DNA of 64,000 nt, from NCBI GenBank assembly GCA_052327205.1, contig JBMRGM010000035.1:52452001-52516000 (forward strand), read 5' to 3'. How positions within the stretch are numbered: position 1 is the first letter of the stretch; each line of letters opens with the position of its first letter. The notes beneath the pieces were generated by a model. That model searched no databases. It had not been told where the DNA came from and saw only the letters and a list, made by a program, of their open reading frames with translations. Source of the stretch: Somniosus microcephalus. Lineage: Eukaryota. Below are positions 26,601 to 64,000 of the stretch, piece by piece. Made by a program: the position numbers and the translations under genes.

Positions 26601-26924
26601 ATGAATAAAATAAATAATTTAACCTTTGGTACCCTGGTAACATTCTGGTCTATCTGTGCTGCACTCTCTCCAAGGCCAGTATATCCTTCCTGAGGTGCGG
26701 TGCCCAGAACTGAATGCAATTCTGCAGATGGGGTCTTTCCAGAGCTCTCTACAGCTGAAGTACCAACATTCCATTAGCCTCTTTAATTATTATTGTACCC
26801 GTCCACGAGCTTTTACTAATTTAAGTACTTGGACCCCTAAATCTCGCCAGTAAGAGGTGTGGGGTGTGTGTATTTTCTGTTTAAATTGGTGCATTTGATT
26901 TAATTTGATTCTGGTATTTAACAG

Positions 26925-27230
26925 CAACAAACAACTCCTGTAAACCCTCAGCAACTGAATCTCTATTTGGAATAGTTCACCAGTCCCGGCGACTGATCCA
27001 ACTCTCCCTACGTATCTCTCTGCCCCACTATCCTTCCCCGGTGGGTTCAGATGTTGCAGACCGAAACAGTGAAAGATCCAGTGATTGTTTCCCACCAGCC
27101 CGAGCACTCCATGTTCTCACTGAATGAAACCTTCCTTCACGGGAAGCAGGCTCTGTTTGATTGTTTAGGTCCCGTAACCCCTGACCCTGTATTACTGCTG
27201 TCAGAATAATGGGCTGTACTCAGAAATAAA
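26925..27230 (+). pseudogene. Decayed beta-defensin-like terminal exon plus 3'UTR (paralogue of 63437-63744)
   Basis: Acceptor TTTAACAG at 26917-26924. Ends ...FPGGFRCCRPKQ* (TGA 27070-27072) at the position of the intact gene's stop region. The 3'UTR closely matches 63584-63744, with AATAAA at 27225. In-frame stops and a frameshift lie upstream. Confidence 0.7.
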
Positions 27231-27854
27231 ACTTACTGCATTGATCACAGCTTCACACCCATGTCTTGTTTCTCGTTAGGGTCAATGTGCTGGAGGACAA
27301 GGTGTCTGGGGATGAAATGAGACTGGGAGAAGATTTGGGAATCGCAGGAAATGGGAAGAGGAAACTGGCACAGGGAATCTCTCCAAGTGTCCAATAACAC
27401 ATTCAGAAAGTTACTGAGATAAGATGGCTGTCCCAGAGCGTCAGCACTCTGACCGTTTGGGGTTCAAGCTGTTTAACTTGAAACGGTGCCTTCAGGCAGA
27501 TTGGAAATTGACATCTATTGCATCAGACCCACAGATCGTTTGATGGGACAGTGTAGAGGGAGATTTACACTCAGTCTAACCTGTCCATCCTCTATCTTGT
27601 TTTTTCTCTAGCTACCTCATTTAATCTCTCTCTCTCTCTTTGCCTCAACTCACTCTCGTCTCTTTCTTTCTCAATGGCTCTATCTCTCCTCACCTCGTTT
27701 TCTCTCTCTCATACACCTTTGCTCTGTCTCTCCTCTCTCTATCTCTCTCATTTCTCTCTGCCTCGCTGTGTCTCACGCTTTCTGCCTTTCTCTTCTCTCC
27801 CTCGGTCCCTACTTCTGCCTCACTCTCAGTCCCCCTCTCTCTGCATGTATCGAC

Positions 27855-28756
27855 TGTTGTATCCTGAAAAGTGGACCTGGTGTTGTGCCAGGTCGACACT
27901 TAACCCTTTCCCCCTCAGAGCGGACTAAGTGATATACAAAGTCGACGCTTAGCTTTGGTGCAGATGACAGACTTCGAGTGAAGGATGGTTCAAAACGGTC
28001 TTTGTTCACAGGCCTGGGGAGAACCTTCTGAGACCCCTCTCAGATCCGACTCCACCGATTCCCTAGCAACAATTACAGTTATACAAAAACAAACCCCTGC
28101 CCTAGGGGCGGGGATAAAGCTTATCAGCATATACAGAGTTATAGCTAAACGGCAATTATAAACCGTGACATTTCATCTTCTTGCCGCCAACAAATCCCAC
28201 ATTTCAGTTTATCAGTTTGTCCCATCACCTCCTGTGACTGTGGGCCTCATCTTAATTGCTCAACAACCATCCATTTGCCCATAGCCAGGTGGTTTTGCTT
28301 GTTACATGTTGTCTTAAGATAACAGTCCTCGTTAAGGCGTGCAAAGCACAGACTTTCGGCCTCGTCTCGGGTTACCTCTGCAAAGCAAGCACATTCTGAT
28401 TAGTCCCACCATACTTTGAAGAATGGAACCCTGTTGTGATTTACAACAAACAAATTCTTAGGTGCGTTTTCTTGCATATGTGTTGCCTGGCCTGGCCAAA
28501 TAGACCTCCTCCCCAATCTTCCCGTGAGTTGTTCTGCAGTTTAATCTCTCAGGATTTGAAGTCACTTAATCATGTTTTAAAACTTAGCTGGGTAAATGCA
28601 ATATACAGACCTCTATATCGTTTAACTCAGGATAGGGATTAACCCATTATCTCCACCTTGTACATTGGTGCTGCATTATACATATTCTAACATAAAAACT
28701 AAATTATAAATATTCTAACATAAAAACTAAGCTTTAATAGTAATTTGGCTACTTCA
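27855..28756 (-). repeat. Provirus 3' LTR (902 bp)
   Basis: Minus-strand TGAAG...ACAACA, preceded by the PPT AAGGGGGGAC (28757-28766). Collinear with 37096-37969. Confidence 0.92.
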
Positions 28757-28914
28757 GTCCCCCCTTATGGACCATTGGTCATTTTGACCCAATACAGCCA
28801 ATATGCTGCAGTTTAAGATTGTTTGCTAAGAGTACCATCGCCCTAGTGGTACCAAGCCAGGGTGTCTAATACTCATACTTCCGCAATCCTAAACGCAGTC
28901 TTCATAATGATTCT

Positions 28915-31240
28915 ACTCACACCCTACCCCTTGCTTGTTGGTGGTTAGCAACAGTGTTTCTTTCTCTTCTTCCTTCGTTATTCGTTTGGTTATGGCCTGT
29001 GCGAGGTTGTGGTTCTTTCGCCATCGGCAATATCCACAAAGTTAGAACAAAGGGATCATTAATACGGCGCCTTGCACAACTACCAGCACGTTTGACATGA
29101 TCCTGATCCAGGGGTGTATATCGACATTTAGCCCCCAGTTCCAGATCTTATTGTACCAAGGAGTTTCCGCTAATGTTGTACCAATGTCTTTTTGTTGTTT
29201 CTTTAAGTCTTCCTCTATTTTATGATAATATAATTTAAACTTTCCTTCGTTTCCTGCCGTAATTTCTTCCAAGCCTCCTCTTCCTCTAACTTAGGAATTG
29301 CCTTGGGCTCTGGTATGACATAAGCTTCAACCTCTTTATTAAGTACCATACCATCAAGTGACCATGTTTTCGTTTCCTGTGGTCTTGGTGGGTGTATATA
29401 TTGATGTCCTATCTGTGTAGATATCTTTGGATCAAAACAAAAGTTTGGCTGGGGAATGGGACAAATCATACCTTGATATTCATATTTCTGTTCAGTTGTG
29501 GTGACACAAAATGTCCCGTTGTTCCTTGGTGCTACCCTTGTCCGGTGTATCCCCCTTGGGTGTACCTCAATGGTGCAATTGGTGTTTTTGGGAATCCGCA
29601 CTCGGATGTGTCTCCCTCGGTGGGGGGGCGGTGTGCACGCCCATGTCCTTCCCTTGTGGTGGCACCCGTCCATTACCACCCCACTTAAGGTTCCATTCTT
29701 CTGTTTATTCTCTTCATCCCCGTCCCAAAGTGCCTTGGTAGGGACATCATGATATTTAACCCAACTTTCCCTTTGTATCTCTCCTATGTTAATCACGTCG
29801 TATAGGGGCTGTCCCTCTTCTGGGAGTTGTGGGATGGCCAGTACAAAGCCAATCATCTTAGTCCATGGGGTCAGACAATTGCCTGCCCGGTATACTTGTC
29901 CCATTTTACGCCCCTTACATAGGCTTTCATTTGCGTCAATCAAAGGTTCCAGATCCTCATTAGTAATCCAGTCAGGGATCTGTCCATTATTTATTTGCCT
30001 CATGTTATGTTGAGCATTTGACAATAGCCATGACCCATACATGGCACATACTAGTTCCTTATGGGTTTGGCGAGAAGCATTGTCAAGTCGATCAATAATT
30101 GTATTGATTGTTTCTGCATGGGGGGCTACTACCTCTTCCACCCCCAACAATTGCATTATTGTTTGTTTTCCTGCCAGTGCCAATTGCTGGCTATTTCCAG
30201 TGGTTTGTTTTAGTAGCCTTTTTTATTTTTGGTTGTAGTTCCTCTATTCCTTCGTTTACTCCTTCTATGTCCAAGCTATTAACTGTTGCTAACCCGGCCG
30301 CATGCCCTGCTCCGGCCATTTCCAGTGCTCCCCTTTTCTTGCGTCTTTGTAAGAGAGATTTTCCCTGTGGACCCTCTAATTGTTTTACCCACAGGGAGTT
30401 CCATATTTGTTTTGTATGATTGTTACACATCGCGGGCATCTCTAGAGTACTCCTATTAATGGCAACCTTAATAGTTCTATGTGTTACACTAAAGTACACC
30501 TCATCTTGTGTTTTCCTTGTTATTAAATCCCCGGGTGCCCCTTTTTCCATTGGTGGGCCAGTTAGTGTAGTGAGGGTATTTTTATGCTTGTTGCTTTTCC
30601 TTTGTAACCCTATCCCCTCCGTCCTTTCCCTGATTTCCATCTGTAATATTTGTCCTCGCCGGGATCCCTTTTTGCGTTCCGCATTATAACATCATATCAT
30701 TCCCCTTTGTCTTTGACCTATTTTGGGCCAATTTAGTGGATTCGAACTCTGTCCCAAATATGGGAGCCCTATGTAATTTGGTGTAATCTCAACTGCTTTA
30801 TTGAATCCGGATCCTGTATCTACGAAATATCCCTTTCCTACTCAAAACTTTGGAGTTATTTGAACATTGTCCTTAGTACATAGGCACTCTATTTTAATCC
30901 CTTCGCCCTCCGTGACCCAGACAAACAAAGTCCCGTTAGCTGTACTTTCGTATTCACAATAATCACAGTACACAGTCACATCGCATCCGTTTCCCGAAGC
31001 CGCCCCCCATTCTAATGGTGGTGTATTGTTGGTGGGCATCTTGATTCAATTCTGGATGATGATTATGTTTCAAGTCGGGTCGATACCAAAGAGCATCAGA
31101 AGTCCCATTACAGATTCAGGGCGTATATTTAAGCATAAACTCCCGAGTTGTTCGCGCCTCCCACTAGACCCAGCGCTTATACTTCGGCATAGAATCCCGA
31201 TGAGAGCGCGATTGATGCTCCACTTCATTTTTCTATGCAT
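28915..31240 (-). pseudogene. env: env, a class I fusion glycoprotein with a Mononegavirales F-like layout, several stops and frameshifts
   Basis: Splice acceptor TTCTTTACAG at about 31250 then ATG 31240. Furin site RRKKR followed by GALEMAGAGHAAGLATVNSLDI and a heptad region. Cys-rich ectodomain (ORF 29215-30183). Membrane-proximal PWYNKIWNW and TM IMSNVLVVVQGAVLMIPLF. Confidence 0.8.
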
Positions 31241-31288
31241 TTATCGTTCCTGTAAAGAAAAATAAAGGGGCCAGTCGTCACCAGCCAA

Positions 31289-31522
31289 TTAGAACGGATA
31301 AGAATGGCATAATTCTATCACTTCAAACTGCTGTACGTCTGGTTCATTTCTTGGTCTGTGGCTCTGTTTCCAGATATACTTGAAGATGCAAACCACGACG
31401 TATAATATTAACATCCCGCACAGCCCTAGCATTAATATATGTAGAAACTGCCCTTCCCATTCTTTATACCTTCTAGCATACTCCTCACTCTCCTCAAAAG
31501 GCGCCATCTCTGGTTTACTCAT
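31289..31522 (-). CDS. Small proviral accessory ORF, 77 aa, predicted single-pass membrane protein
   Basis: Intact ATG to stop. The ATG overlaps the inferred pol stop (AATGAGTAA). Hydrophobic run FLHILMLGLCGMLILYVVVCIF followed by basic residues. Ends just before the env splice acceptor. Confidence 0.55.
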   Translation of the reverse strand: MSKPEMAPFEESEEYARRYKEWEGQFLHILMLGLCGMLILYVVVCIFKYIWKQSHRPRNEPDVQQFEVIELCHSYPF

Positions 31523-34500
31523 TGTTTTTGTTATATATTTTTAACTGAGTCCAGTGCTTCCACCGTCCTTTACCTGTTCCGGACTCATCTATACAAGCGA
31601 ATGTGTCACTGTTCATTCATACTTAGTAAGGTCCTGACCATCTGGGTGCCAGCCCTGGTTTGGCTGGTATTATTTTTGCCATCACCTTGCTACCTACAGC
31701 TGGGACCTCCTTCTGGTCGTCCTGTGCATCCTGTTCTAGATCCTGTATAATCTGTTGGTCTTTGGCCTCATGTCTGAGAGCGTGTAATTGCGTACACAAT
31801 TGTTTAATAAATCTCCTAATTCTATCCTTCAGGGGCCCTACTTCCTCACCCCCGGTAGCGACTCCTTCCGGCAGTGTCATTGCTCGTCCGGTCATTAGTT
31901 CGAAAGGTGTCAGCCCCGTGGTTCTATTCGGAGTTGCTCTAAGTCTCATCAGTATACTCGGGAGTAACTCTGCCCATCCCTTCCCCGTGTCTTCTATTGC
32001 TTTAGCTAAGGATAATTTCAAAGTCCGGTTCATCCTTTCCACCATCCCTGAACTCTGAGGGTGATATGGTATGTGGAACCTTTGTCTGATACTTAATAAT
32101 GCGCATGTTTCCTTTATAACCTTTCCTGTAAAGTGTGTTCCCTGGTCTGAATCAATCTGCAGCGGGACCCCCCATCATGGTACAACCTCCTCTGCCATTA
32201 TTCGTGCTACGGTTGCTGCTGTGCAATCTCTAGCGGTGAAAGCTTCAACCCATCGAGTAAATTGATCTATTATTACCAAACAGTACATTTTCCCCATTGA
32301 TTTCGGTAGAGGTCCAGTAAAGTCTATCTGCAACTTCTCCCATGGGCCTCTTGGTCTCGGCTGATGTCTCCACTTTACCTCGACAGGTTTCCCTATGTTA
32401 TACTGCGCACATATGGGGCAGTGTCTACAGAATCTGTCCACAGCTTGTTTCATTCCGGGCCACCACCAGCATCGCTGGAGGTTGTTTAACATATTGGATA
32501 TACCTGTGTGTTGCCTACCATGGTACATTTTCATTAATTCCTGTTGTATTCAGCCTGGTGCACATATCTGCTGCTCTTTCCTCCATATTCCCCCCGCCCT
32601 TTCTCCTTGTCCCCCTCGTTCCCATAGCTGTTTCTCCTCCTGGGATACTTCCTTATGTAATTTGGATATATCTATATCTTCTGGCAATGCAGTTATAGCA
32701 GCTATGTCTATCTGTGTTTCTGGTTCTGTGCTTCTCTTGTTTGCTGCTGCAACCTGTTGCTCTACCAATTTTCTGTCTGCACGATCGGCGGCTCTGTTTC
32801 CCTTTCTGTGGGGGAGTTCCTCCTCTGGTGGGCTTTTACCTTCACTACAGCTGTTTCAGTGGGTAACCCTGAGGCAGCTACCAATTCCTTTACTAATTCC
32901 TCATGCTGTATGGGTTTGCCACCTGAGGCAATATACCCCCTTCTACTCCAAGCTGCCATATAATCATGTACATAACAACTATCGGTATAGATATTCACCC
33001 GTTTCCCTGCTGCCAATTTTAATGCTTCTGTCAACGCTGTTAACTCAGCAACCTGTGCTGAACTACCCCCTGGTAATCTTCCTTCCCTCTGGACAGTGCC
33101 ATCTCTTGTCACCATGGCCCGACCTGTTCGTAGTGTTCCGTTAAAATATTTACGGGACCCGTCCACATATAGCTCTAGGTCTGCCTGTGTCAAAGGCAAT
33201 TCCCTGATCCTGTCTACATATTCTGATTCTTCTTCACTGGTGCAATAGTGTTCCTCTCCTTCCATTCCCATCATAGCTGCGGGGTTCTGGCTCATATCTC
33301 TAACTATCTGTATGGATTTATCTTTAGGTAACAGGACAGCCTCCCAAGCAGCCTTCCGGCCGTTTGAGACGGTTTTTAATCGTCCGGTGTTTAACAATTC
33401 CACTAGGGTGTGTTATGTATGTAACACAATATCCCCTGTCATTACTACAGGTTCACTCACTTTGTGCACGGTGGGCAGTCAATCAATCGCGGCAACGCAT
33501 CTTGGCATACCGGCTACTATCGGGGATCTCCGTGTCGAATAGTAGGCTACAGGTCTCATGTAATCCCCATGCTTTTGTGCTACCACTGCACTGTACTGTC
33601 CCCCGTGATTGTGGCAGAAGATATGATATGGTCTCCCCATATCAAGTAATCCTCAGGCTGGTGCGGCAGTCAGTGCCTGTTTTAATTTAGTGAAGGCCTG
33701 TAACTCTGTCCATTCAATGGGTTCGTCTGGAGCTTTTCCCCCTTTGGTCAATTCACAGAGAGGTGCAGCTAGTTGTGAGAATCCTTCAATAAAATTTCTG
33801 CTATAATTAAATAGTCCCATTACTTGTCACACTCCCCTTGTATTCACAGGTTTGGGCATATCGTTTATAGCCCACTTTCGATCCCCTGCCATGGCTCTCT
33901 TGCCCATGCTGATGTTATATCCCAGATAGGTTACCTCTGATTTCCCTACTTAAGCTTTGGTGGGGTTTACTTTGTGGCATTGCCACATTGGGGAAACACT
34001 GTGTGTATGTAGATAAACCTGTATAATCCCCTTTTAACTGCTGTATTCCCCTCCCCCTGCAAGACAGTTGCAAGCTGAGAGGAATAAGGCACGTGTAGAC
34101 TTGCCTGCTGCTGAGAGAAGGAAAACCAATCGGGTTCCAGCAGGTGACCAATCCGTGAGTCATCACAGGTTCGCGGGCTTCACGAATTCAGTATTGTATT
34201 GTGAGAGTTGGAGTAAAGACCTATTTCTTGTAGCTCGCTGTGTTGCCTATTTGTTTACGCGGGAGACCGTAGTCCCCCACAACTTTAAAGCCTGCATCCC
34301 GAAGAGCTTTCAGAATTTTAGACAAGGCTTTAACATGCCCCTGAGTGCTTGTGGAAGCTATCAGTAGATCGTCGACATACTGCAACACAGTGCTGCCGTC
34401 CTCCTCTAACTTTACTTCCTCCAGGGCCTTGGCCATGTGTCGGTGGAATATAGCTGGACTATTATGGAACCCTTGAGCGACCCTCGTCCAAGTATATTGT

Positions 34501-35250
34501 TTCCCATCTAGTGTGAAAGCAAATTTCTCTTGCGATTCTTTGTCCAATGGTATGGACCAGAATCCGTTCACAATGTCTAATACTGTAAAAATTTTGTGTT
34601 CAGGCTTTAGTTCATTAAAAATTGTAGCAGGGCTTGCTACTATCGGGCATTCCTTTGGGGTTACCTTATTTAGTTCTGTGTAATCTATTGTCAGTCGAAA
34701 TGATGCATCTGGTTTCCTTACTGGCCATATCGGGGAATTAGTTTCAGATATAGTTTCTCGTAAGATTCCCTGTTTGGTTAATTCCAACACTGTCCCGTAC
34801 TGCTGCTTTGGCTTCCTCCTTTAAAGGATATTGTTTGTGGGCGATGCATTGGTCCTGGTATTTTCACCAGAGGGGTTTGGACTAGTCCACAATCTTGTTT
34901 GTGTTACCCACACCCCAATATACTCTCTGCATGGGATTGTCCACGGTCCCTTCTTATCCCATTCTGGGTCTATAATCTTCGTTGCCCCTGCCCGATCTGC
35001 TTTGTTTCCCGGGGCTGCCTGTTTGTTTGACTTATAATCTGGTGGCCAGTACACTTCATTTGCTTTAGGGTCGACTAAAGCTCCTACTTCTCGCAGTATG
35101 TCTATCCCTAGGATTGTTCCTTCAGTATTCTCGCATACCCACAACTGTGCAGGTATTATTATACATCCAATTTCTAGTAAAACTGTTTCGCTCTTATGAG
35201 CCCTGATTTTTCGTCCACCGATTCCTGTTACATTAATTGAAAGTTTTGTT
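31515..35250 (-). pseudogene. pol: pro-pol remnants (partial protease, RT, connection/tether, RNase H, integrase)
   Basis: VTGIGG...ILGIDIL, NSPIWPVRK, LDIVNGFWS, QGFHNSP, QYVDDLL, YVDGS...SAQVAEL...YTDS, HHCC zinc finger, QIDFTGP, SDQG, VERMN, WSGPY. Confidence 0.9.
33973..34281 (+). mobile_element. Solo LTR (309 bp) of another element, inserted in the proviral RT, 4-bp TSD ACTT
   Basis: TGTGG...CCACA termini. ACTT at 33969-33972 and 34282-34285. Removal restores DAGFKVNP on the minus strand. Confidence 0.85.
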
Positions 35251-36482
35251 CGGGGCAACTCCTCTGCGGCAGCTATCTTAAACTTTTGCATGTTATCCAC
35301 TTCTGTCGCCCACCTAATTAAGTCTTCATAGTTGTTCATTGTAACAACTCCTAATCGTATGGCTGCCTGATGTGCGGGACCCAGTCCGGCTTTAAATGAC
35401 TGCAGGAAACATTGGTTCTCTGTGGTGGGGTTTCAGATGCCGGAACATCCCACAAACCTTTCCCATTTCCGTTTACTATAGTCTACGGCAGATTCCCCCT
35501 TCTCCTGAGTTATATTGGTTATGGCTGCCCAATTTACCGGCGCCTGTCCCATAACCTCTTCTACAGCTCGCTTGAATAACTCGTAGTTTTGGTCTAACTG
35601 TTGCGGGGTGAGATTACACTCCAGGCACCAAGTTCCGTCCCTGAAATTCACGGGCAATTGGTCCCAACGATCATCCGAAACTTTTGCTCGCACCAACTGG
35701 TTTACATCTTTATTGTGTAAACTATGACTGATCCTCAATTCCCTCATCTTTTGCCAAAATGGGTAGTTATTCCCCCGATGTTGCAGCTGGGGTAATTTAT
35801 CCACCAGCATTTGTTTCTCTAAGGGTTTGAAGGGCTGGTAGGTAGTTCGAATTATCTGGGGTCTTGCCGGAACTGCAGGGACCGCTGGAATTTCCAGTTT
35901 GTCTCCTGCCGTGGGGATCATGGCGGTACCGGGAATCTCTGGGTGTCCTGGGATTACTTCAGTTTTTACCGGGGCCACTTTTACCGTGCGGTCCAGCGGA
36001 TTATAGGGTGGTGGGAAATTATTTTCTTCTGGCCAAGGCAGTGGCTCCAGCCAGTCCCTTTCCTTACTATCTCCTGCTGATTTCTCTCCTAACCCACCCC
36101 CATCTATATTACCTTTTCCCAGTAGGTTTGGGTATAGGGACGTACTGCTGGAACTGGCTGCCGCCACCAGGTGTCCCTCTCCTCCTGGTTTGGGAGTTGT
36201 AACTTCTTTCTCTTCCCTTTCTCCCTTTTCCTTCTGTTTCAACTCATTACATAGTTTCTGGTAACCAGCTAAAACTACCATTCCCCCTTTCCCCTCTTTA
36301 TCTCTGCATTGTCCTCTCCGCCAAGCTCTTTGGCTCTCTGCACTATCTTCAGGATCCCATCCTTTTTCATATTTTCGATAAATGTTCGATTCTTGTCCGC
36401 TAAATAGCGGGTGACGGAGCCGGGATCTCCCCAAGGGGACAGTCCCTTCTCCTGTATCTCTGCATTCCCTTTCGGCATTCAA
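35250..36482 (-). pseudogene. gag: gag (frameshifted near the 5' end, internal stop)
   Basis: LYPNL and PPPY late-domain-like motifs, MHR-like ITQEKGESAVDY, position between PBS and pro. Confidence 0.8.
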
Positions 36483-37075: not shown

Positions 37076-37093
37076 ATCCTGTTCGTGACGCCA
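37076..37093 (-). promoter_or_regulatory. Primer binding site complementary to the 3' end of tRNA-Ser(CGA)
   Basis: Minus strand TGGCGTCACGAACAGGAT, 2 nt from the LTR end. Plus strand ATCCTGTTCGTGACGCCA matches the 3' 18 nt of a vertebrate tRNA-Ser(CGA) as I recall it. Splice donor AAGG|GTGAGT nearby at about 37033. Confidence 0.82.
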
Positions 37094-37095
37094 AT

Positions 37096-47052: not shown

Positions 47053-48412
47053 CAGCAAACAACTCCTGCAAAACCACAGCAACTGAATCTCTATTTGGAA
47101 TAGTTCACCAGTCACGGCGACTGCTCCAGAGCAACAAAGGAACAGGAGTAGGCCATTGAGCCCCTCGAGCCTGTTCTGCCATTCAATGAGATCATGGCTG
47201 ATCTGCACGTTGGCCCATATCCTTTAATACCTTTAGTTAACAAAAAGCTATCAATCTCTGATTTAAAATTAACAATTGATCTAGCATCACTTGCCATTTG
47301 CGGATGAAAGTTCCAAACTTCTACCTCCCATTGTGTGTAAAAGTGTTTCCTAATTTCACTCCTGAAAGGTCTGGCTCAAATTTTTAGACTATGCCCCCTA
47401 GTCCTAGAATTCCCAACCAGTGGAAATAGTTTCTCTCTCTCTACCCTATCTATTCCCCATAATATCTTGAAAACTTCAATCAGATCACCCCTTAGACTTC
47501 TAAATTCTAGGGATTATAACCCTAGTTTGTGTAATCTCTCCTCGGAACAACCCTTGGAGTCCGGGTATCATTCTGGTAAACCTACGCTGCACTCCCTCCA
47601 AGGCCAATATATCCATCCTAAGGTGTGGTGCCCAGAACTGCTCACTGTACTCCAGGTGTGGTCTAACCGGGGTTTTGTATAGCTGCAGCATAACCTCTAC
47701 CCCTCTGTACTCTGGTCCACTAGACATAAAAGCCAGCATTCCATTAGCCTTTTTGATTATTTTCTGTACCTGTTCATGACATTTTAATGATCTCTGTACC
47801 TGGACCCCCAAGTCTCTTTGGACCTCCACTATTTTTGAGCCTTTCACAATTTAGAACGTACCCTGTTGTATCATTTTTAGGTCCAAAGTGGATGACTTCA
47901 CATTTGCCTACACTGAAATCCATTTGCCACAGTTTTACCCATTCACATAATCTATCGATATCACTTTGTAATTTTATGCTTTCATCTACACTCCCTACAA
48001 TGCAGCCTATCTTTGTGTCATCGCAGATTTAGATATATGACTTTCTATGCCATCATCTAAGTTGTTAATAAATACTGTTAATAGTTGAGGCCCCAACACA
48101 GATCCCTGTGGGACACCACAGTCACATCCTGCCAATTTGAGTACGTATCCATTATCCCTACTCTCTGCCTCCTGCAGCTCAGCTAATTTCCTAACTAGGT
48201 CAATAATTTGCAATGAATTCCTACTATCACCAAATTCTTCCACTCTGCTTGTGTGAAAGATCCAGTGATGGATTCCCGCCAGCCCGAGCTCTCCACGTTC
48301 TCACTGAATGAAACCTTCCTTCACGGGAAGCAGGCTCTGTTTGATTGTTTAGGTCCCGTAACCCCTGACCCTGTCTTACTGCTGTCAGAATAATGGGCTC
48401 TACTCAAATAAA
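47053..48412 (+). pseudogene. Second decayed defensin-like terminal exon plus 3'UTR, split by an antisense CR1 (about 47130-48210)
   Basis: 47053-47128 matches 26925-27000 (here GAC TGC where the other copy has GAC TGA). The 3'UTR from 48254 matches 63584 onward, with AATAAA at 48407. Confidence 0.65.
47130..48210 (-). mobile_element. 5'-truncated CR1 LINE
   Basis: Minus-strand [22 protein letters not shown] and a CR1 3'UTR. Confidence 0.85.
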
Positions 48413-48783
48413 ATTTACTGCATTGATCACCGCTTCACATCCGTGTCTTGTTTCTCTTTAGGATCAGTGTGTCCGAGGACAAGGTGTTCGGGGTGGATTG
48501 AGGCTGGGTGCAGATTTGGAAATCGCAGGAAATGGGAGGGGGAAACCGCTGCAGGGAATCTCTGCAAGTGCCTAAACACATTCAGGAAGGTACTGAGATA
48601 AAACGGGTGTCCCAGAGTTTCAGCACTCTGACCGATTGGATTCAGCATATCTCACTTACAGAATCATAGAATGAACCAGCACAGAAGGAAGCCCTTCGGC
48701 CGATTGACGCTGCACCGGCTCTTTCACAGAGTAATCCAGTTTGTCCCCCTCCCCCGCTCTTTCCCCATATCACGGCAATTATT

Positions 48784-54149: not shown

Positions 54150-55072
54150 TTTTGTGTGTGTGTTTCTTGGCACCATGTGCAGATCCCGCATCTATATTAC
54201 CCTCTATATTCCGCACAGTGCCAGTTTCTGAGCTGGTGTCTGAGTGTCTGATGCAGTGACGTTTGGTGGGCCATCTTCTTCTTCTCCACTTTCCTCCATT
54301 ATTTCGGGGACAGGCTACGTGGGTGGCAGATCTTGGTCATCTGAAAGCAGAAAGGCACAAGTGTCAGGTTATGATGAGGGGAGGGGGGAAAGCAAGATAT
54401 CCATGCATGCAGCATCAGCAGCTTGTAAGTGAGAAGAGCTTGTGGGATGAGGGGATGTGGGATATGAGAAGGAGGATTAGGAATGAGCAGAGCGTTATTG
54501 CCCCCAAGGGCTTCAACTTCCCCGTTTTCGTGGCTTCGGTGACTGCCCCTCCAATCATGTCGAGCACTGTCTCCTCCAGTTGGCAAAGGTCTGTAAAGCG
54601 GTTTGGCCGCTTCCCGTCTGCCGTTGCTCGCGGCGGTTGTGAGCTACCTTGGCCTGCAAGAAAAAGGGAAGTGTGTCAGTGAGTGCAGTGAGTGTTTGGG
54701 TGATGTGCCTGCCTTAGTTGAATAGCTCTTAGTATGTGCAAGGTGTGAGATGTGGCTGTGAGTGTTGCAGCAGTGGTAAGGTTGTGAGGGTGAAAGGAAG
54801 CTATGATTGTGAGGTCTGTGTGGTGAAAGGTAGGTGAATGATGGGGGTGTGGTATATTGAGCAGTGTCTGAGGCTTGTGGTGCAGATGCTGGGATATGAC
54901 ATTTGCTGAAGCCTTCACTCACCTTGACCTGCCGTGTGAGGTCGTTAAACTTCTTGCGGCACTGGATCCATGTCCGCGGGACGACACTAATGACCGTGAC
55001 ATGATACTGTTGGCCGTGATGTACCAGCTATCTCCTGCCACAGCCTTCTCGAAGTGTGCACTGATGGCTTCC
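54150..55072 (-). mobile_element. PIF/Harbinger-like element fragment with a Myb/SANT-like exon (duplicate of part of 57170-61521)
   Basis: Minus strand RTWIQCRKKFNDLTRQVK|GTGAGT. Confidence 0.65.
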
Positions 55073-57689
55073 TGATGGATCTATAAAGGGTGATGAACCA
55101 GAGCAGATAAGAGAAGTGAGCTTCGGTGAAAATCTAGACAATATCAATCTCAACATAATAAGGTTTATGATTTGAGAAAGACAAAAATAATCATTTGGAA
55201 AAAGCTGATTGAGGTGATGTAAATGGAGCTAGTGAAGATAAATTGGAACGGAAGAGACAGAAAAAGAGAGAGAGCAGCAGTGGGAAATATATAAAAGGGT
55301 GATCAGTAGAGTTCAGGAGGAATATATTCCACTAAAATAAACAATAAACTAGCCAATAATGAAGCACCATGGATGAATAAAGAGATGAGGGCAAAATTGA
55401 AACTAAAGAAAAAGGCAGAGACTGAGTACAGTGACAATAAAGGAAAGGATGACAAAAGGGAATAGGAAGAGATTGGGAAAGAAATTTAAAAAAAACAATT
55501 AGGAAGGCGAAAAGGAATTGCGACATTAAATTATCAAGTAATATAAAAAGAAATAGTAAATAGTAAAATCTACAGACACACAACAAAAGGTAAAACAGGA
55601 TAGGGACAGAGCCACTAAAGGATGCACAAGATAAACTCGCAGGTAATGACAGCGAAATGGCAGGAAATGCCTCAGTTTTTAAACTGGCTGACTAACGAGG
55701 TGGATATGACCTTGCAAGAGGAGATCAAAAAAGATATCAAGACCGTTAAAATTGAAAGGGGAAAATAACTGATAAACTAGCAGAAGTTTGAGAGGATAAA
55801 ATCGCAGGTCTGGATGTGTTAATTCACACAGACTAAATGGAGCAAGGGAAGAGATAGCAGAGGCACTAATATATTTACTCGGAATTGTTGGTACAGTTTC
55901 AAAATTTGTGGATGATGTCAAATTTGGGATTTTAATCAATATTGAAGAGGATTGTGACAATACAAGATGTTAAACTTGGATGATGGGTGTGTAAATGGCA
56001 AATTAATTTCAATATAGATCGGTATGAGGTGGTGAATTTTGGTAGGAGGAGTAAGGAGGCTACGAGCTCCTTGGATAGCAAGTGACTAAATGTGGTAGAG
56101 GAGCAAAGGGATCTCGGGGAACAGATGTACAAATCATTAAAAGCAGGTTAACAAGGCCATGAAAATGCAAACCAAGCACTGGGGTTCATTTCTAGAGTAA
56201 GAGAATTGCAAAGCAGAGAAGTTATATTAAACGTGTACAGACTTTGGTTAGACCACACTTGGAGCACTGTGTACAGTTCTGGTCTCCAAATTACGAAAAG
56301 TATATCGAGACACTGGAGAAGGTGCAAAATAGGATTGACGAGAATTATACCAGAACTGAGAGGTTCTAAGTATCCAGAATGACTGAACATGTTGGGGCTC
56401 TTTCTCTAGAAAAGAGAAGGCTGAGCAATGTCTAATAGAGATCTTTATATTTATGAAGGGCTTTGATGGGGTAGATGTAGAGAAGATGATCCCACTTTAG
56501 GGAGTCGCAAACTAGGGATCATAAACATAAGATGGTCATTAATAATTGCAATAATGAACTCGGGAGAAACCTCTTTACCCAGAGAGTGGTTAGAATGTAA
56601 AGCTTGCTGGCAAATGGAGTAGTTGAGGTGAATAGCAGAGTGCCTTTAAGGGGCAACCAGATAGGTATATGATGGAGAAAGGAATAGAAGGATATGATGG
56701 TAGGATGAGGTGAAGTAAGGGGGGAGGAGGTTGGTGTGGAGCATAAACACCGGCATGGACCTGTTGGACTGAATGGCCTGTTTCTGCGCTGTAAATACTA
56801 TGTAATTCTATCGTGAATTCTGAATAGACACAGTACAGCTCTCGAAACAAACTTCAGCGAGAGGCTAGGTGTCACAGAGGGTCAAAACTCTGACCTTTCT
56901 CCCCTACCGATCTGAAGGTTTTGTGTAAAATGAATGTAGGGAGTTCAAACACAGTCCTTGGTGAGAGGTCAGATTTGTACCACACTGGGCCCTAAATCGA
57001 CAGACTGGCTGTTACGTGCCGAGCAAGTGTCTTTAAAAGCCTGTTTAAAACCTCTCTCTCCGTCACTGATCTCAATCCACCTACAACCGTAACCCTTTCC
57101 CTCCTGCTCTGTGTGTGTGTCTGTATGTATGTGCGTGTTATCAGTCTGTCTACGTGTATGCATGGCAGTGTCTGTGTGTGTGTTTCTTGGCACCATGTGC
57201 AGATCCCGCATCTATATTACCCTCTACATTCCGCGCAGTGCCAGTTTCTGAGCTGCTGTCTGAGTGTCGGATGCAGTGACGTGTGGTGGGCCATCTTCTT
57301 CATCTCCACTTTCCTCCATTATTTCGGGGACAGGCTATGCGGGTGACAGATCTTGGTCATCTGAAATCAGAAAGGCACAAGAGTCAGGTTATGATGAGGG
57401 GAGGGGGGAAAGCAAGATATCCATGTATATAGCATCAGCAGCTTGTAAGTGAGAAGAGGTTGTGGGATGAGGGGATGTGGGATATGAGAAGAAGGATTAG
57501 GAATGAGCATTATTGACCCCCAGGGCTGCAACTTCCCCGTTGTTGCGGCCTCGGTGACTTCCCCTCCAATCATGTCGAGCACTGTCTCCTCCAGTTGGCA
57601 AAGGCCTGTACAGCGGTTTGGCCGCCTCCCGTCTGCCGCTGCTCACGGTGGTTGTGAGCCACCTTGGCCTGCAAGAGAAAGGGAAGTGT

Positions 57690-58092
57690 GTCAGTGAGTG
57701 CAGTGAGTGTTTGGTGATGTGTCTGTCAAAGTTGAATAGCTGTCGGTGTGTGCAAGGTGTGAGATGTGGCTGTGAGTGCAGTGAGTGTTTGTGTGATGTG
57801 TCTGTCAAAGTTGAATAGCTGTCGGTGTGTGCAAGGTGTGAGATGTGTCAGTGAGTGCAGTGAGTGTTTGTGTGATGTGTCTGTCAAAGTTGAATAGCTG
57901 TCGGTGTGTGCAAGGTGTGAGATGTGTCAGTGAGTGCAGTGAGTGTTTGGGTGATGTGTCTGCCAAAGTTGAATCGCTGTCGGTGTGTGCAAGGTGTGAG
58001 ATGTGTCAGTGAGTGCAGTGAGTGTTTGTGTGATGTGTCTGTCAAAGTTGAATAGCTGTCGGTGTGTGCAAGGTGTGAGATGTGTCAGTGAG
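57690..58092. repeat. 79-bp tandem repeat, about 5 units
   Basis: TGTCAGTGAGTG recurs at 57846, 57925, 58004 and 58083. Only one unit in the paralogue at about 54675-54760. Confidence 0.9.
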
Positions 58093-59417
58093 TGTTGCAG
58101 CAATGGTAAGGTTGTAAGGGTGAAATGAAGCTATGATTGTGAGGTCTGAGTGGTGAAAGGTCGGTCAGTGATGGGGGTGTGATGCATTGAGCAGTGTCCG
58201 AGGCTTGTGGTGCAGATGCTGGGATATGACATTTGCTGAAGCCTTCACTCACCTTGACCTGCCGTGTGAGGTCGCTAAACTTCTTGCGGCACTGTATCCA
58301 TGTCCGCGGGACAACACTATTGACCGTGACATGATACTGTTGACCGTGATGTAGCTAATGTTACCCCACTATTCAAAAAAGGTGGTAGAGAAAAAGCGGG
58401 GGATTATAGACCGATAAGCCTGACATCGGTAGTGGGGAAAATGCTAGCGTCCATTATAAAAGATGTAATAGCAGAGCACTTGGAAAGCAGTGACGGGATC
58501 GGACAAAGTCAACATGGATTTACAAAAGGTAAATCATGCTTGACTAATCTACTGGAATTTTTGGAGGATGTAACTGGTAAAATAGATAAGGGAGAACCAG
58601 TGGATGTGGTATACTTGGACTTTCAGAAGGCTTTCGATAAGGTCCCACATAAGAGATTAGCGTGCAAAATTAAGGCACATGGGATTGGGGGCAAGGTATT
58701 GACTTGAATAGAGAACTGTTTGGCAGACAGAAAGCAAAGAGTTGGAATAAACGGGTCGTTTTCCGAGTGGCAGGGAGTGACTAGTGGGGTACCGCAAGGA
58801 TCGGTCCTAGGACCCCAGCTGTTAACAATATATATTAATGATCTGGACGAGGGAATTGGATGTAATATTTCCAAATTTGCAGACGACACAAAGCTGGGTG
58901 GGAGGCTATGCTGTGAGGAGGATGTCGTGAAACTCCAGTACGATTTGGACAGGTTGGGTGGTTGGGCAGACACATGGCAAATGCACTATAATGTGGATAA
59001 ATGTGAGGTTATCCACTTTGGTGGCAAAAACAGGACGGCAGATTATTATTTGAATGGCAATAGATTGGGAGAAGGGGAAGTGCAAAGAGACCTGGGTGTC
59101 CTTGTGCACCAGTCGCTGAAGGTAAGCATGCAGGTGCAGCAGGCGGTTAAGAAGGCAAATGGTATGTTGGCCTTCGTAGCACGAGGGTTCGAGTACAGGA
59201 AAAAGGATGTCTTGCTACAGTTGTACAGGGCCTTGGTGAGACCGCACCTTGAGTATTGTGTGCAGTTTTGGTCGCCTTACCTGAGGAAGGACGTTCTTGC
59301 CATGGAAGGAGTGCAGCGAAGATTCACCAGGCTGATACCTGGGATGGCAGGAATGACGTATGAGGAGAGATTGTGTCAATTGGGCTTATACTCACTGGAG
59401 TTTAGAAGATTGAGAGG

Positions 59418-60681: not shown

Positions 60682-61799
60682 GAGGGGATCTCATGCAAAC
60701 CTACAAAATTCTGTCAGGCCTGGACAGACTAGATGCAGGAAGGATGTTTCTGATGGCCGGGGAGTCCAGAACTAGGGATCACCGTCTAAGGATAAGGGGT
60801 AAGCCATTTAGGACTGCAATGAGGAGGAATTTCTTCACCAAGGGAGTGGTGAACCTGTGGAATTCTCTGCCACAGAGGGCGGTGGAGGCCAGTTCATTAA
60901 ATATATTCAAGAAAGAGTTGGATATATTTCTTAAGGCTCAAGGGATATGGGGAGAAGGCAGGGACAGGGTACTAACTTTGCATGATCAGCCATGATCTCA
61001 TTGAATGGCGGAGCAGGCTCGAAGGGCCGAATGGGCTACTCCTGCTCCTATCTTCTATGTTTCTATGTGATGTACCCAGCTATCTCCTGCCACAGCCTTC
61101 TCGAAGTGTGCACTGATGGCTTCCTGCCACGCTGCAGGAACAGGACAGCCTGCCTCCTCTCCACTGCCACGACCAATGCCTCCAGAGCCGCATCGGAGGA
61201 CCTTGTGGCTCGTTCTCTTTGCTGCTGCTGAGACTTGTGGGCCAACTGCAATTCCAACCCCTACTTCAGTGACAATGAGGTGCTGCTGCATCAAAGCACC
61301 TCCACTCTAAGTAGTGGAGAAACACTAGGCCACACATTACAGGCCATTAGACTGCACAAGATATTAGCCCACCTGTTTAGCGCTGTGATCAGCACTACAA
61401 TCATGTAAATGAGCAGACAGCATGAATTGTGCATGCTGCCTGGGCCACTCTGAACGGGGGCAGCCAAATAGCACTGGGCCATGACACCGCCCGTTTTCGG
61501 GCCATATCCAATTTCTAGGCCTAGGTTTGATGGGTTAAAAGTCCTGTTGAGAACATAAGGACATAAGAATAAGGAGTAGGAGTAGGCCATACGGCCCTTC
61601 CAGCCGGCTCCGCCTATCAAAAATACCATGGCTGATCTTTGACCTCAACTCCACTTCCCCGCCTGATTCCCATAATGTTTGTGGACCAGCTGCATCATGC
61701 CAGCTGAGCTCAGGAGTTCAGACCTGGAGTTGGGCCCAAACACACAACCTTGTCTTCTGAAAGATAGAGAACTGCCAACTGGGTCCAGCTGCCAACTGA

Positions 61800-61900
61800 T
61801 CCACGTCACATAAAAAGGAAACGCCTTTTCCCAGGATATCTCCAGAGAACAGAGCCACTCCCCGTGTGTGTGACTATAAATGCAGCAAACTCGGAGTCCG
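61800..61900 (+). promoter_or_regulatory. TATA-box promoter of the defensin-like gene
   Basis: TATAAA at 61875-61880, 84 nt upstream of the ATG. Half-CRE ACGTCA and a STAT-like TTCCCAGGA upstream (weak evidence). Confidence 0.6.
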
Positions 61901-61958: not shown

Positions 61959-62019
61959 ATGAAAGCTCTGCTCTTGCTTCTTGGATTCCTGGTGCTGACT
62001 CAGGCCAGCCTCACTGGAG
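61959..62019 (+). CDS. Beta-defensin-like gene exon 1, signal peptide MKALLLLLGFLVLTQASLTG
   Basis: Good Kozak context (AAGATG), classic signal peptide, 61-nt phase-1 exon. The expected donor reads G|GGGAGA (non-canonical). In-phase GT donors exist at 62029 and 62068. Confidence 0.72.
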
Positions 62020-62785
62020 GGGAGATCGGTGGAGGCGCCAATTGGAAGATATTAGGAGGAGGAAGAGGTAGATTTGGAGGAGTAGGAATAGGTTTTGGTT
62101 TCTAGGTTTCTCTGATCTCTCCGCAGTCAGTGTCCAGTCAGTTTTATGTTTTAAACTATTGTATTCTCTGTTTGAATGTCACAGTTTGATTAATTGAGTG
62201 AAGGTGATTGTAAGAAAGTCTGAAGAATTTAACCTGAACCAGTTCCACGGGTAAATCCCCCGATTATTCAGCGGGTACCTCAGTGGGTCAAGGGAATGGC
62301 GGGTGTTTGCTGATCCAAACAGACCAGCAATAAAAGCACAAATTACTGGCCGGTGCCGAGTGGGCGGATCTCAGCCGCAGCATTGACCCGGTTAGGAGAC
62401 TCTGTAATTGGCCTCAGTACCCAGGTACTGCGGAGGGGAAACTCCCAGTTGTTGCTTCCGATCACTGCTACCCGCTGCAAAGTGTGAGAGTGCGGACTCT
62501 GTGTGAGGACCGGAGCGGGAGATCCTTCAGTCCCTTTCCCCCACACTCACTGTCCAGTCTCACAGATGAAGAATGGTGAATTGGGAGCGATGCTGGAGGT
62601 GTGAGAGGAACCGGTCCCCAGACAAGAGTCAGCTTTTCATTACAGGAGGGTAGGGAATGGGATCAAAAAGGTTTCAAAACAGGTTTATTTAATTGGAATA
62701 ATTCTGCAGCCTTCATAGAGATCGGGATGTGAGAACACGGACTAAGTAGAGGAGGCAAGCGGTGAAATGATCAATTGCCAGTAGC

Positions 62786-63205
62786 TGGGTGTCAGTTTGG
62801 CTCAGTTGGGAGTTGAGTGAACAAGTTGTGGGTTGATGCCCCAGTCCAGTACATACAGCCCAGCACTGGGGGAGTGCTGCTCTGTTGGAGGTGTCATGTT
62901 GTGGATGAAACGTTAAACGGAGACCCTGTCTACCTGTTCATGGGGCAGGAAACATCTGGTGACATTATTTGAAGAGCTGGGAGTTCTCCCGGTGTCTTGG
63001 ACCGACATCACTCTCTCATCCAACATGAGCAGAGACTCCCCATCCTGTCCAATCTCATTTGCTGTTTGTGGGACTTTGCTATGAGCTAATTGGCTGCCAC
63101 ATTTCCTACAAAACAGTGTCGGCACTTCAGAAACAAGCCCTGGTCTGTGAAACTCTTTGGGCCCTTCTGGTGCCGGGAAAGGTTCTCCATCAATGTCAGA
63201 TCTTT
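62786..63205 (+). mobile_element. Deu-domain SINE (SacSINE1-like), decayed, in intron 1
   Basis: tRNA-like head TGGCTCAGTTGG, Deu core CGTTAAAC...GGAGTTCTCCCGGTGTC...TTGCTGTTTGTGGGA...AATTGGCTGCC. Confidence 0.75.
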
Positions 63206-63228
63206 CCTCTCTGTGTCTCTGGTCTCAG

Positions 63229-63290
63229 ATAGCGGGTGTGGTGGGCTCCTTTCTGAGGAAATCCCCTTGGGCTGCCCTTCAGGACAAAGA
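63229..63290 (+). CDS. Beta-defensin-like gene exon 2, propiece DSGCGGLLSEEIPLGCPSGQR
   Basis: Polypyrimidine tract plus CAG acceptor and a consensus GTGAGT donor. Phases 1 and 0 join exons 1 and 3 in frame. Confidence 0.7.
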
Positions 63291-63436
63291 GTGAGTCTGC
63301 ACAGGTCGGGGGAGAGGTGTGGAGTTTCATTAAGTATAAAAGAGTTAATGTTCATGTGTGGTCCAGAGTCAGTCTTAGTAACACTGACAGACTCAGCTTC
63401 ATGTTTTCTCATTGTTCTCCCTCCCTCTGTGTACAG

Positions 63437-63583
63437 AACCATCAATCAATTCATTCTTCATTTTGGATTTTAGTGCCCTGCACCTGGTATGGAGGAGCAT
63501 GTCGTGAGGGCGGCTGTAACAGAGACGAGATGCCTTTCCCAAAAAAGTGCCCTGATATGTTACAATGCTGCTTTCTGAAATGA
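63437..63583 (+). CDS. Beta-defensin-like gene exon 3, six-cysteine domain NHQSIHSSFWILVPCTWYGGACREGGCNRDEMPFPKKCPDMLQCCFLK
   Basis: Pyrimidine tract plus CAG acceptor. C-x6-C-x4-C-x10-C-x5-CC with G-x-C at C2 and Glu four residues after C3. Tandem TGA TGA stop. Confidence 0.82.
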   Translation, partial: NHQSIHSSFWILVPCTWYGGACREGGCNRDEMPFPKKCPDMLQCCFLK

Positions 63584-63738
63584 TGAAAGATCCAGTGACG
63601 GATTCCCACCAGCCCGAGCTCTCCACGTTCTCACTGAATGAAACCTTCCTTCACGGGAAGCAGGCTCTGTTTGATTGTTTAGGTCCCGTAACCCCTGACC
63701 CTGTATTACTGCTGTCAGAATAATGGGCTGTACTCAGA

Positions 63739-63744
63739 AATAAA
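63739..63744 (+). terminator. Polyadenylation signal of the defensin-like gene
   Basis: AATAAA about 155 nt after the stop, followed by a GT-rich tract (GTGTCTTGTTTGTC). Conserved at 27225 and 48407. Confidence 0.75.
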
Positions 63745-64000
63745 ACTTACTGCATTGATCACAGCTTCACATCCGTGTCTTGTTTGTCTTCAGGGTCAAT
63801 GTGTCCGAGGACAAGGTGTTCAGGGATGGGATGAGGCTAGGAGAAGATTTGGGAATCGCAGGAAATGGGAAGAGGAAACCGCTGCAGGGAATCTCTGCAA
63901 GTGCGAAATAACACATTCAGAAAGTTATTGAGATAAGACAGGTGTCCCAGAGTGTCGGCACTCTGACCGTTCAGGGTTCAGGATATCTCGGTTGAACGGA

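What the first reader, a model, noticed from the sequence alone, without database searches (positions are those of the whole stretch)
26888..64000. Birth-and-death cluster: three copies of the defensin terminal exon and 3'UTR spaced 15-21 kb apart
Seen: about 400 bp starting TGAAAGATCCAGTGA (stop region, 3'UTR, AATAAA, downstream flank) occurs at 27070, 48254 and 63584, all on +. The UTR and flank are far more alike between copies than the coding parts just upstream. Established: defensin clusters evolve by tandem duplication, with fast-diverging mature peptides and frequent pseudogenes. Inference: this window is the edge of a defensin-like gene cluster, and the conserved UTR can be used to find more members.
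Basis: partly seen in the sequence, partly recalled or inferred. Interest (0 to 1): 0.72.

Follow-up and report, generated by a model that had tools for sequence, protein, structure and literature searches.

The report
Shark-lineage defensin array with read-through exon
A cartilaginous fish carries a tandem family of small secreted defence-peptide genes (here one intact, two broken), and the repeated stretch behind each copy turns out to hold a non-coding exon that RNA data show spliced onto other copies.

Summary
The ~400-bp block is real (27070, 48254, 63584; 88-91% identical), but these are not three defensin exons. Only copy 3 has a six-Cys exon (63474-63583). Copy 1 is a frameshifted remnant, and copy 2 keeps 25 nt before a CR1 insertion. 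I found copy 3's missing promoter and exon 1 (ATG 61959): a signal peptide plus a 27-aa Gly-rich segment, then an inferred phase-1 intron. The DNA is chondrichthyan, judged by its CR1 elements. Contigs of public runs show the whole gene is multicopy, with a conserved signal and UTR and a hypervariable N-segment and Cys domain. That supports a birth-and-death family, not a dispersed transposon. The 'downstream flank' holds a 131-nt non-coding exon. In two probable RNA runs from related species its donor is joined exactly to its own acceptor type and to defensin-exon acceptors of other sequence. Best reading: a beta-defensin-like tandem array with read-through splicing between units. Back-splicing is not excluded. 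Fold, disulfides and activity are unproven (Pfam, PDB and fold searches blank; ESM Atlas lead 0.85). No chondrichthyan defensin paper turned up in the library searched; I recall, unverified, a nurse-shark report.

The parts
61875..61880 (+). TATA box of the intact gene (copy 3)
   Evidence: TATAAA 84 nt upstream of the ATG; promoter role inferred
61959..62091 (+). Exon 1, coding part: signal peptide (aa 1-16/17) plus 27-aa Gly-rich segment (12 Gly, 3 K/R); inferred phase-1 donor at 62092
   Evidence: In 3 of 3 paralog segments whose letters were printed, the frame runs to a phase-1 GT at the homologous place, and one paralog has an in-frame 51-nt Gly/Arg repeat gain. This donor was not seen directly in a spliced contig.
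62092..63473 (+). Intron (inferred), with two or three short high-copy repeat fragments
63474..63583 (+). Exon 2, coding part: beta-defensin-like domain, C-x6-C-x4-C-x10-C-x5-CC, then stop
   Evidence: ESM Atlas top hit is a beta-defensin cluster, score 0.85, 173 shared features; acceptor position confirmed by joints in paralogs
63584..63754 (+). 3' UTR of copy 3, AATAAA at 63739, likely cleavage at CA 63753-63754
   Evidence: 94-97% identical between copies; one contig of run X4 (kind not on record) covers 63563-63754 with 1 difference and ends there (weak hint, one study)
63755..63793 (+). GU/pyrimidine-rich spacer ending in AG: downstream poly(A) element that doubles as a splice acceptor
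   Evidence: Sequence; dual role inferred; acceptor use shown by loose ends in X10 and X12
63794..63924 (+). Non-coding cassette exon, 131 nt; the GT at the donor used in relatives reads TT here
   Evidence: Joints and loose ends at 63924 in X10 and X12; stops, length not a multiple of 3, no codon-position bias
26976..27072 (+). Copy 1: decayed defensin-like exon (97 nt, out of frame; only the Cys-Cys tail kept); no own promoter or exon 1 in the window
   Evidence: DNA alignment to the copy-3 exon is weak (17 of 1000 shuffles score as high)
27070..27461 (+). Copy 1 block: UTR (to 27240), spacer, cassette exon 27280-27410 (donor TT), flank
47104..47128 (+). Copy 2: first 25 nt of the exon, after an acceptor shared with copy 1
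   Evidence: 26874-27000 matches 47002-47128 at 91%
47129..48253 (-). CR1-type LINE fragment replacing the rest of copy 2's coding exon
   Evidence: Aligns to other CR1 copies up to 48246-48253
48254..48639 (+). Copy 2 block: UTR (to 48422), spacer, cassette exon 48462-48589 (128 nt) with intact GT donor
   Evidence: its first 16 nt equal the loose ends behind 63924 in X10 and X12
25353..27000 (+). Five colinear blocks shared with 43730-47128 (83-95% identical): copies 1 and 2 lie in one segmental duplication

Best explanation
A tandem, segmentally duplicated array of beta-defensin-like host-defence peptide genes in a cartilaginous fish. Each full unit is: promoter; exon 1 (conserved signal peptide plus a hypervariable, often Gly/Arg-rich N-segment); phase-1 intron; exon 2 (six-Cys domain, stop, conserved 171-nt UTR, poly(A) site); and 39 nt further a non-coding cassette exon. 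Shown: one intact unit and two dead ones in the window, many paralogs, and exact joints of the cassette donor to cassette and exon-2 acceptors in relatives. Inferred: the intact unit makes an ~80-aa secreted precursor that kills or signals like other beta-defensins. Units are born by tandem duplication and die by frameshift or LINE insertion, while the UTR is kept by selection or conversion. Because the GU/pyrimidine element behind the poly(A) site is also a 3' splice site, polymerase running through the array splices cassette to cassette and on to downstream defensin exons. That gives mostly non-coding read-through RNA: in 3 of 3 window cassettes the frame leading into a defensin exon holds a stop.
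For: The six-Cys motif occurs once, 0 of 100 shuffles. Atlas lead to PF00711 clusters; 10 of the 10 best family hits agree. TATA box, hydrophobic leader (GRAVY 1.75) and phase-1 acceptor; a phase-1 intron before the Cys domain is the shared mark of beta- and big defensins (PMC7203481, passages). One X10 contig joins the signal exon (62008) to the UTR start (63584) across other sequence; paralog N-segments keep frame in 3 of 3 cases; one shows an in-frame repeat gain. X1 contigs cover 30 of 30 bins, with many variants in promoter and intron too. The six best-supported X1 loose ends all lie at an intronic repeat (63052-63110), none at the block's edges (389 rows not shown). Colinear flanks and no target-site duplication. 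The UTR is more alike than cassette plus flank in all 3 pairs (Fisher p 1e-4 to 9e-4; p 0.02 against colinear blocks). Cassette joints: 63924 to 63490 with 16 letters that replace exactly exon-2 nt 1-16, Cys1 codon in place; same letters in two studies. The five best named CR1-RT hits are cartilaginous fish.
Against: No Pfam family for the exon-2 peptide, no PDB sequence hit, no homologue by word index, and only a spurious repeat protein by HMMER. The single-sequence model has pLDDT 58 and no fold match. The domain's net charge is only about +1. The copy-3 splice 62092 to 63474 was not seen directly; unspliced, exon 1 is a complete 48-aa ORF. X10 and X12 are RNA by guess only, come from other organisms than the best holder, and no DNA run of those organisms was laid. 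Contigs cannot separate inter-unit splicing from back-splicing. Contig depth is no measure of copy number or expression. In copy 2 the CR1 ends at exactly the first base of the block, which this model treats as coincidence.
Confidence: 0.68

Rival explanations
1. The gene family is as described, but the cassette joints are back-splices: circular RNAs of the cassette alone, or of exon 2 + UTR + cassette from one unit, not splices between neighbouring units.
For: The tool reports these joints as 'goes back' (63924 to 63490; 63925 to 63584), which a circle from one unit would also give. Library type is not on record.
Against: Cassettes of 100-131 nt are short for single-exon circles (recalled). 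Several cassette variants with different 3' ends all join a cassette start, as a chain would (tables 5c and 7). The window has 3 blocks for 1 promoter, so some cassettes have no promoter of their own nearby.
Confidence: 0.17
2. The block began as a mobile element (for example a short LTR) that was taken over as 3' UTR and poly(A) signal by the ancestral gene, and also exists as solo copies elsewhere; copy 2 could be such a copy.
For: The block starts with TG and holds a poly(A) signal; a TGAAAG start resembles gammaretroviral LTR ends (recalled, not tested). Its 5' edge falls on the same base in three different upstream contexts, including directly against CR1 in copy 2. Summed X1 depth is higher on the block than on the gene body (medians ~640-840 against 200-370; weak measure).
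Against: No target-site duplication (longest shared flank word 4-5 nt, and these lie inside the homologous sequence). Copy 2 shares five upstream colinear blocks and the exon acceptor with copy 1. Homology of copies 1 and 3 extends weakly into the coding end. No large pile of loose ends at the block's edges among the X1 rows shown.
Confidence: 0.08
3. The main product of copy 3 is the unspliced 48-aa Gly-rich peptide (exon-1 ORF 61959-62105), with the Cys exon used rarely or not at all.
For: Exon 1 is open to a TAG just past the candidate donors, and those donors are weak matches to consensus.
Against: Paralogs differ by single-base indels downstream of the homologous GT but keep frame upstream of it. 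The Cys exon is intact with a good acceptor, and a near-identical contig covers its end and the UTR. No poly(A) evidence near exon 1 was seen.
Confidence: 0.07

Closest known systems
Vertebrate beta-defensins (Pfam PF00711; teleost and mammalian DEFB clusters)
   Same: Signal peptide, six Cys ending in CC, phase-1 intron before the Cys domain (PMC7203481 passages), two coding exons as in mammals (PMC8231796 passages), tandem cluster with pseudogenes.
   Different: Below the Pfam profile threshold; a 27-aa Gly-rich, hypervariable exon-1 segment between signal and domain; two coding exons where teleosts have three (PMC8231796); a cassette exon 39 nt behind the poly(A) site; a lineage outside the 'teleost fish to mammals' range given in PMC7203481.
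Big defensins (molluscs, horseshoe crab, amphioxus)
   Same: Two-module precursor: an N-terminal region and a beta-defensin-like domain separated by a phase-1 intron (PMC7203481 passages).
   Different: The N-segment is short, Gly-rich, not hydrophobic (GRAVY 0.13) and varies from ~8 to over 40 aa among paralogs; no Atlas hit. The resemblance is architectural, with no sign of homology.
Primate SPAG11/EP2
   Same: Read-through transcription and alternative splicing across adjacent beta-defensin genes (PMC1524968 passages).
   Different: SPAG11 fuses two genes into coding isoforms. Here the linker is a repeated non-coding cassette carried by every unit, with a stop in the frame entering the next defensin exon.
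Repeated non-coding-exon host transcripts (C19MC, SNHG14 type; recalled, no paper read)
   Same: Short repeated exons spliced head to tail along a tandem array.
   Different: No Rfam family or unusual fold in the conserved part; the conserved part is a 3' UTR with a poly(A) signal.

Membership tests
Beta-defensin | Six Cys in beta-type spacing, with the last two adjacent | tested here: met
   Cys at 2, 9, 14, 25, 31, 32 of the 35-aa exon-2 peptide; copy 3 only
Beta-defensin | Disulfides Cys1-5, 2-4, 3-6 | not testable with these tools
   Needs synthesis and mapping; the model is too poor
Beta-defensin | Three-stranded antiparallel beta-sheet fold | tested here: inconclusive
   Single-sequence model, pLDDT 58; no Foldseek or VIA match; Atlas feature hit 0.85 is a lead
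Beta-defensin | Secreted precursor with signal peptide on an upstream exon | tested here: met
   Met-Lys, hydrophobic core, GRAVY 1.75; judged by inspection, no SignalP; conserved in paralogs
Beta-defensin | Phase-1 intron at the 5' end of the Cys-domain exon | tested here: met
   Acceptor 63474 needs phase 1 and is used in paralog joints; 3 of 3 paralog donors are phase 1; the copy-3 donor itself is inferred
Beta-defensin | Match to the PF00711 profile (diagnostic, not defining) | tested here: not met
   0 families; hence filed as 'beta-defensin-like'
Beta-defensin | Cationic, with antimicrobial or chemotactic activity | not testable with these tools
   Domain 5 K/R against 4 D/E; N-segment 3 against 1; activity untested
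Big defensin | Hydrophobic globular N-terminal domain | tested here: not met
   27 aa, 12 Gly, GRAVY 0.13, hypervariable; no Atlas or Pfam hit
Dispersed transposon or solo LTR | Target-site duplications and unrelated flanks | tested here: not met
   No TSD; colinear flanks between copies 1 and 2
Dispersed transposon or solo LTR | Genome-wide dispersal at high copy number | tested here: inconclusive
   No assembly held; X1 contigs show no repeat-like pile of loose ends at the block's edges among the rows shown
SPAG11-type read-through defensin locus | Splicing between adjacent defensin genes | tested here: inconclusive
   Exact donor-acceptor joints in 2 of 2 probable RNA runs; back-splicing not excluded
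SPAG11-type read-through defensin locus | In-frame coding fusion of the joined genes | tested here: not met
   Stop in the cassette frame that enters exon 2 in 3 of 3 window copies; direct exon 1 to distal exon 2 splices were not examined

The most novel reading that the evidence does not exclude
The array is a combinatorial host-defence locus. All exon-1 donors and exon-2 acceptors are phase 1, terminal exons outnumber promoters (3 to 1 here), and transcription runs through the units. One promoter and its variable Gly/Arg-rich N-module could therefore be spliced in frame to any of several downstream defensin exons, with the poly(A)/acceptor overlap acting as the switch between ending and running on. 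That would be a 3'-variable-exon repertoire of two-module antimicrobial peptides in cartilaginous fish, standing between big defensins and ordinary beta-defensins.
Probability: 0.15. Interest if true: 0.85.

Novelty: new variant of a known kind. Interest (0 to 1): 0.55.

Why it matters
Reviews in the library give beta-defensins as running from teleosts to mammals (PMC7203481) and list no defensin among shark antimicrobial peptides (PMC6795676, section 14). A large, fast-evolving, two-exon family in cartilaginous fish would push the family and its phase-1 intron back to the jawed-vertebrate ancestor. The variable exon-1 module bears on how the big-defensin N-terminal domain was lost or replaced (intronization versus exon shuffling). 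These genes escape Pfam and protein databases, so the conserved signal exon and UTR are the practical handle for finding them. The cassette exon at the poly(A) site makes read-through splicing in a defensin cluster directly testable.

Tried and rejected
Run X4 has no cover on exon 1 or the cassette: not used as evidence. Two exact-pattern scans of JGI metagenomes found 0 stretches. Word-index protein searches with exon 2 and exon 1 found no candidate. HMMER on 1.84 billion representatives gave 1 hit, P0121, a tandem-repeat translation, rejected as spurious. PDB sequence, Foldseek and VIA searches were blank on a low-confidence model. Rfam gave one chance match (E 3), and the UTR folds no better than shuffles (z 0.10), so SECIS, snoRNA and miRNA readings of the conserved block were dropped. 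A coding cassette was rejected: the 18 differences between copies 1 and 3 fall evenly on codon positions in all frames. The idea that copy 2 keeps a coding remnant before its stop was rejected: it is CR1, and no better than shuffles against copies 1 and 3. No exon-1 or promoter paralog in the window. Three look-ups of earlier findings returned nothing. Literature: 10 searches found no paper describing chondrichthyan defensins; the two 'gcdefb' listings were irrelevant (one read: grass carp; the other seen as a listing only). The library lacks most subscription journals, and I recall, unverified, a report of nurse-shark beta-defensins, so absence from print is not shown. PMC4451809 was not held. 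No supplements were consulted.
Full report
OBSERVATION. The 15-mer is at 27070, 48254 and 63584 on +, 21.2 and 15.3 kb apart. The three blocks align over 387-406 nt at 88-91%, and a profile finds no further full copy. Split by part, identity is 94-97% from the stop to 63754, 87-92% in the next 39 nt, 79-87% in 63794-63924, 82-84% beyond, and 27-49% in the 105 nt upstream. So the repeat and the contrast are real. The claim of three defensin exons is not: a six-Cys motif occurs once in six frames (0 of 100 shuffles in 1-kb blocks).

THE INTACT GENE (copy 3). Exon 2 starts at acceptor 63474 in phase 1 and encodes C-x6-C-x4-C-x10-C-x5-CC before a stop. Upstream, 1.5 kb away, lie a TATA box (61875) and an ATG (61959) opening a 16-17-aa hydrophobic leader and a Gly-rich stretch. 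Four phase-1 GT sites could give an open precursor. Paralog contigs choose among them. Three of three exon-1 variants whose letters were printed keep the frame from the signal peptide to a phase-1 GT at the place matching 62092, and an X1 contig shows an in-frame 51-nt Gly/Arg repeat gain ending at 62087 (table 5c, read by hand; arithmetic). The inferred precursor is 80 aa: signal, 27-aa segment with 12 Gly, 36-aa Cys domain. The splice itself was not seen for this copy. One X4 contig covers 63563-63754 with one difference and ends at a CA 10 nt behind AATAAA: a weak hint of the poly(A) site, from one run of unrecorded kind.

IS IT A DEFENSIN? ESM Atlas ranks beta-defensin clusters first (0.85, 173 shared features; 10 of the 10 best family hits agree), which the tool calls a lead. 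Pfam, PDB sequences, two word-index searches, HMMER on 1.84 billion proteins and two fold searches on a pLDDT-58 model gave nothing usable. Cys spacing, signal peptide and a phase-1 intron before the Cys domain fit beta-defensins (PMC7203481 and PMC8231796, passages seen). I file it as beta-defensin-like; disulfides and activity are untested.

THE TWO DEAD COPIES. Copies 1 and 2 share five colinear upstream blocks (83-95%), including an acceptor resembling copy 3's. From it, copy 1 has 97 nt to its stop against 110 nt: out of frame, with only the Cys-Cys tail recognisable and a weak DNA match to copy 3 (17 of 1000 shuffles). In copy 2 the exon breaks after 25 nt, and antisense CR1 runs to 48253. 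Neither has a promoter or exon 1 in the window. Other duplicated blocks recur from 6.3 kb to 57.8 kb, so the whole window is inside the array and an 'edge' is not shown.

LINEAGE AND FAMILY SIZE. The five best named relatives of a CR1 reverse transcriptase in the window are from rays, a skate and a chimaera (71-79%); turtles and birds reach 43-56% (120 of 4,775 hits listed). No assembly is held. Of 24 listed runs, 20 from 12 studies hold the exon-2+UTR query wholly or in part; 15 hold 0.46-0.50 of its words, about the share that the UTR makes up (only 4 of the 24 were laid). In X1 (kind unrecorded; treated as DNA because it covers 30 of 30 bins and runs on past splice sites), many variant contigs cover promoter, exon 1 and intron as well as the block. 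Its six best-supported loose ends all sit at an intronic repeat, none at the block's edges (389 rows not shown). With colinear flanks and no TSD, a dispersed transposon is disfavoured. One X10 contig links the signal exon (62008) to the UTR start (63584) through other sequence: conserved ends, variable middle. The UTR is more conserved than cassette plus flank in 3 of 3 pairs (p 1e-4 to 9e-4), and modestly more than the colinear blocks (p 0.02).

THE 'FLANK' IS AN EXON. 39 nt behind the poly(A) site a pyrimidine tract ends in AG (63793), and at 63924 copy 2 has an intact GT donor while copies 1 and 3 read TT. In X10 and X12 (organisms C and D, two studies, RNA by guess), loose ends behind 63924 read as the start of the same exon, matching copy 2's first 16 nt, and loose ends before 63792 read as its end (table 7). 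Joints from 63924/63925 go to 63490 with letters that replace exactly the first 16 nt of exon 2, the first Cys codon in place; one such joint has identical letters in both runs, and further joints go to 63584 (tables 5 and 5c; 15 joints not shown). X1 shows none of these among the rows listed. Summed contig depth falls 150-300-fold just past the donor in X10 and X12 but 1.4-fold in X1; the tool warns that depth cannot rank parts of a gene, so this only agrees with the joints. The exon is non-coding: 131, 128 and 131 nt, a stop in the frame that would enter exon 2 in 3 of 3 copies, and no codon-position bias.

MECHANISM. Shown: anatomy, decay, paralog variation, exact joints. Inferred: the intact unit yields a secreted two-module peptide. 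Tandem duplication carries the UTR, spacer and cassette with every unit. The downstream poly(A) element doubles as a splice acceptor, so transcripts that run on are spliced cassette to cassette and into later defensin exons, yielding mostly non-coding RNA (0.68). Rivals: back-spliced circles (0.17); an exapted LTR-like block with solo copies (0.08), favoured only by the unexplained fact that CR1 in copy 2 stops at the block's first base; an unspliced 48-aa Gly-rich product (0.07). No DNA run of organisms C or D was laid, so a genomic origin of the joints is improbable but not excluded.

COMPARISON AND NOVELTY. It works like a vertebrate beta-defensin cluster. It resembles big defensins only in having two modules split by a phase-1 intron; the hydrophobic N-domain test fails. 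It resembles SPAG11 in read-through splicing (PMC1524968, passages) but not in coding fusion. Ten searches found no description of chondrichthyan defensins. A 2019 review lists none among shark peptides (PMC6795676, passages and section 14), and PMC10707392 and PMC11541337 add nothing (passages). The library lacks most subscription journals, and I recall, without a call to support it, a nurse-shark beta-defensin report, so 'defensins in sharks' may be known. The Gly-rich variable module and the cassette exon are the new parts. Verdict: new variant of a known kind, interest 0.55; the combinatorial-repertoire reading has probability about 0.15 and would merit 0.85.

Noticed in passing
window 18579-18776, 25197-25496, 43727-43863, 53762-54070, 56799-57108: A second non-TE-looking block of ~300 nt in five copies (85-89% identical), each behind the same old CR1 fragment where that is kept. 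It has a donor-like site (TTG|GTGAGA in 3 copies) and weak similarity to the cassette end and post-donor flank (nhmmer E 0.004; 3 of 300 shuffles). Possibly another repeated non-coding exon of the array.
   Followed up: partly
window 27855-37969: LTR retroelement or ERV-like insertion on the minus strand just behind copy 1: ~880-bp LTR pair 92.6% identical, RT (PF00078) and integrase ORFs, several broken frames, two long ORFs without Pfam match.
   Followed up: partly
window 38471-41071: hAT-type DNA transposon: terminal inverted repeats, 8-bp target-site duplication, DUF659 ORF; transposase interrupted by stops.
   Followed up: partly
window 15367-15647, 27523-27584, 49724-50990: A 67-bp satellite (4.2, ~1 and 18.9 copies) recurs at the same place in the duplication units, behind the cassette block and before the old CR1 fragment.
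   Followed up: partly
window 52245-54764 and 55252-57778: A 2.5-kb direct tandem duplication at 86% identity upstream of the intact gene, with a 79-bp tandem repeat at 57687-58094.
   Followed up: no
window 55016-55074 and 61067-61126: A 60-bp stretch 98% identical, much younger than its surroundings; may mark a recent rearrangement junction.
   Followed up: no
window 48462-48589: Copy 2's cassette is fully open when entered in phase 1 (42 codons, 5 Cys), so an exon 1 to cassette splice could be translated there; copies 1 and 3 stop after 12 codons. Probably chance.
   Followed up: partly
window 63581-63680: In copy 3 the reading frame past the Cys domain meets four TGA stops before the first TAG; a selenocysteine reading was considered, but no SECIS-like family or fold was found.
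   Followed up: yes
window 440-3905 and 7266-8954: A LINE with endonuclease and RT domains, and a gag/aspartyl-protease LTR-element fragment, at the window's left end.
   Followed up: no
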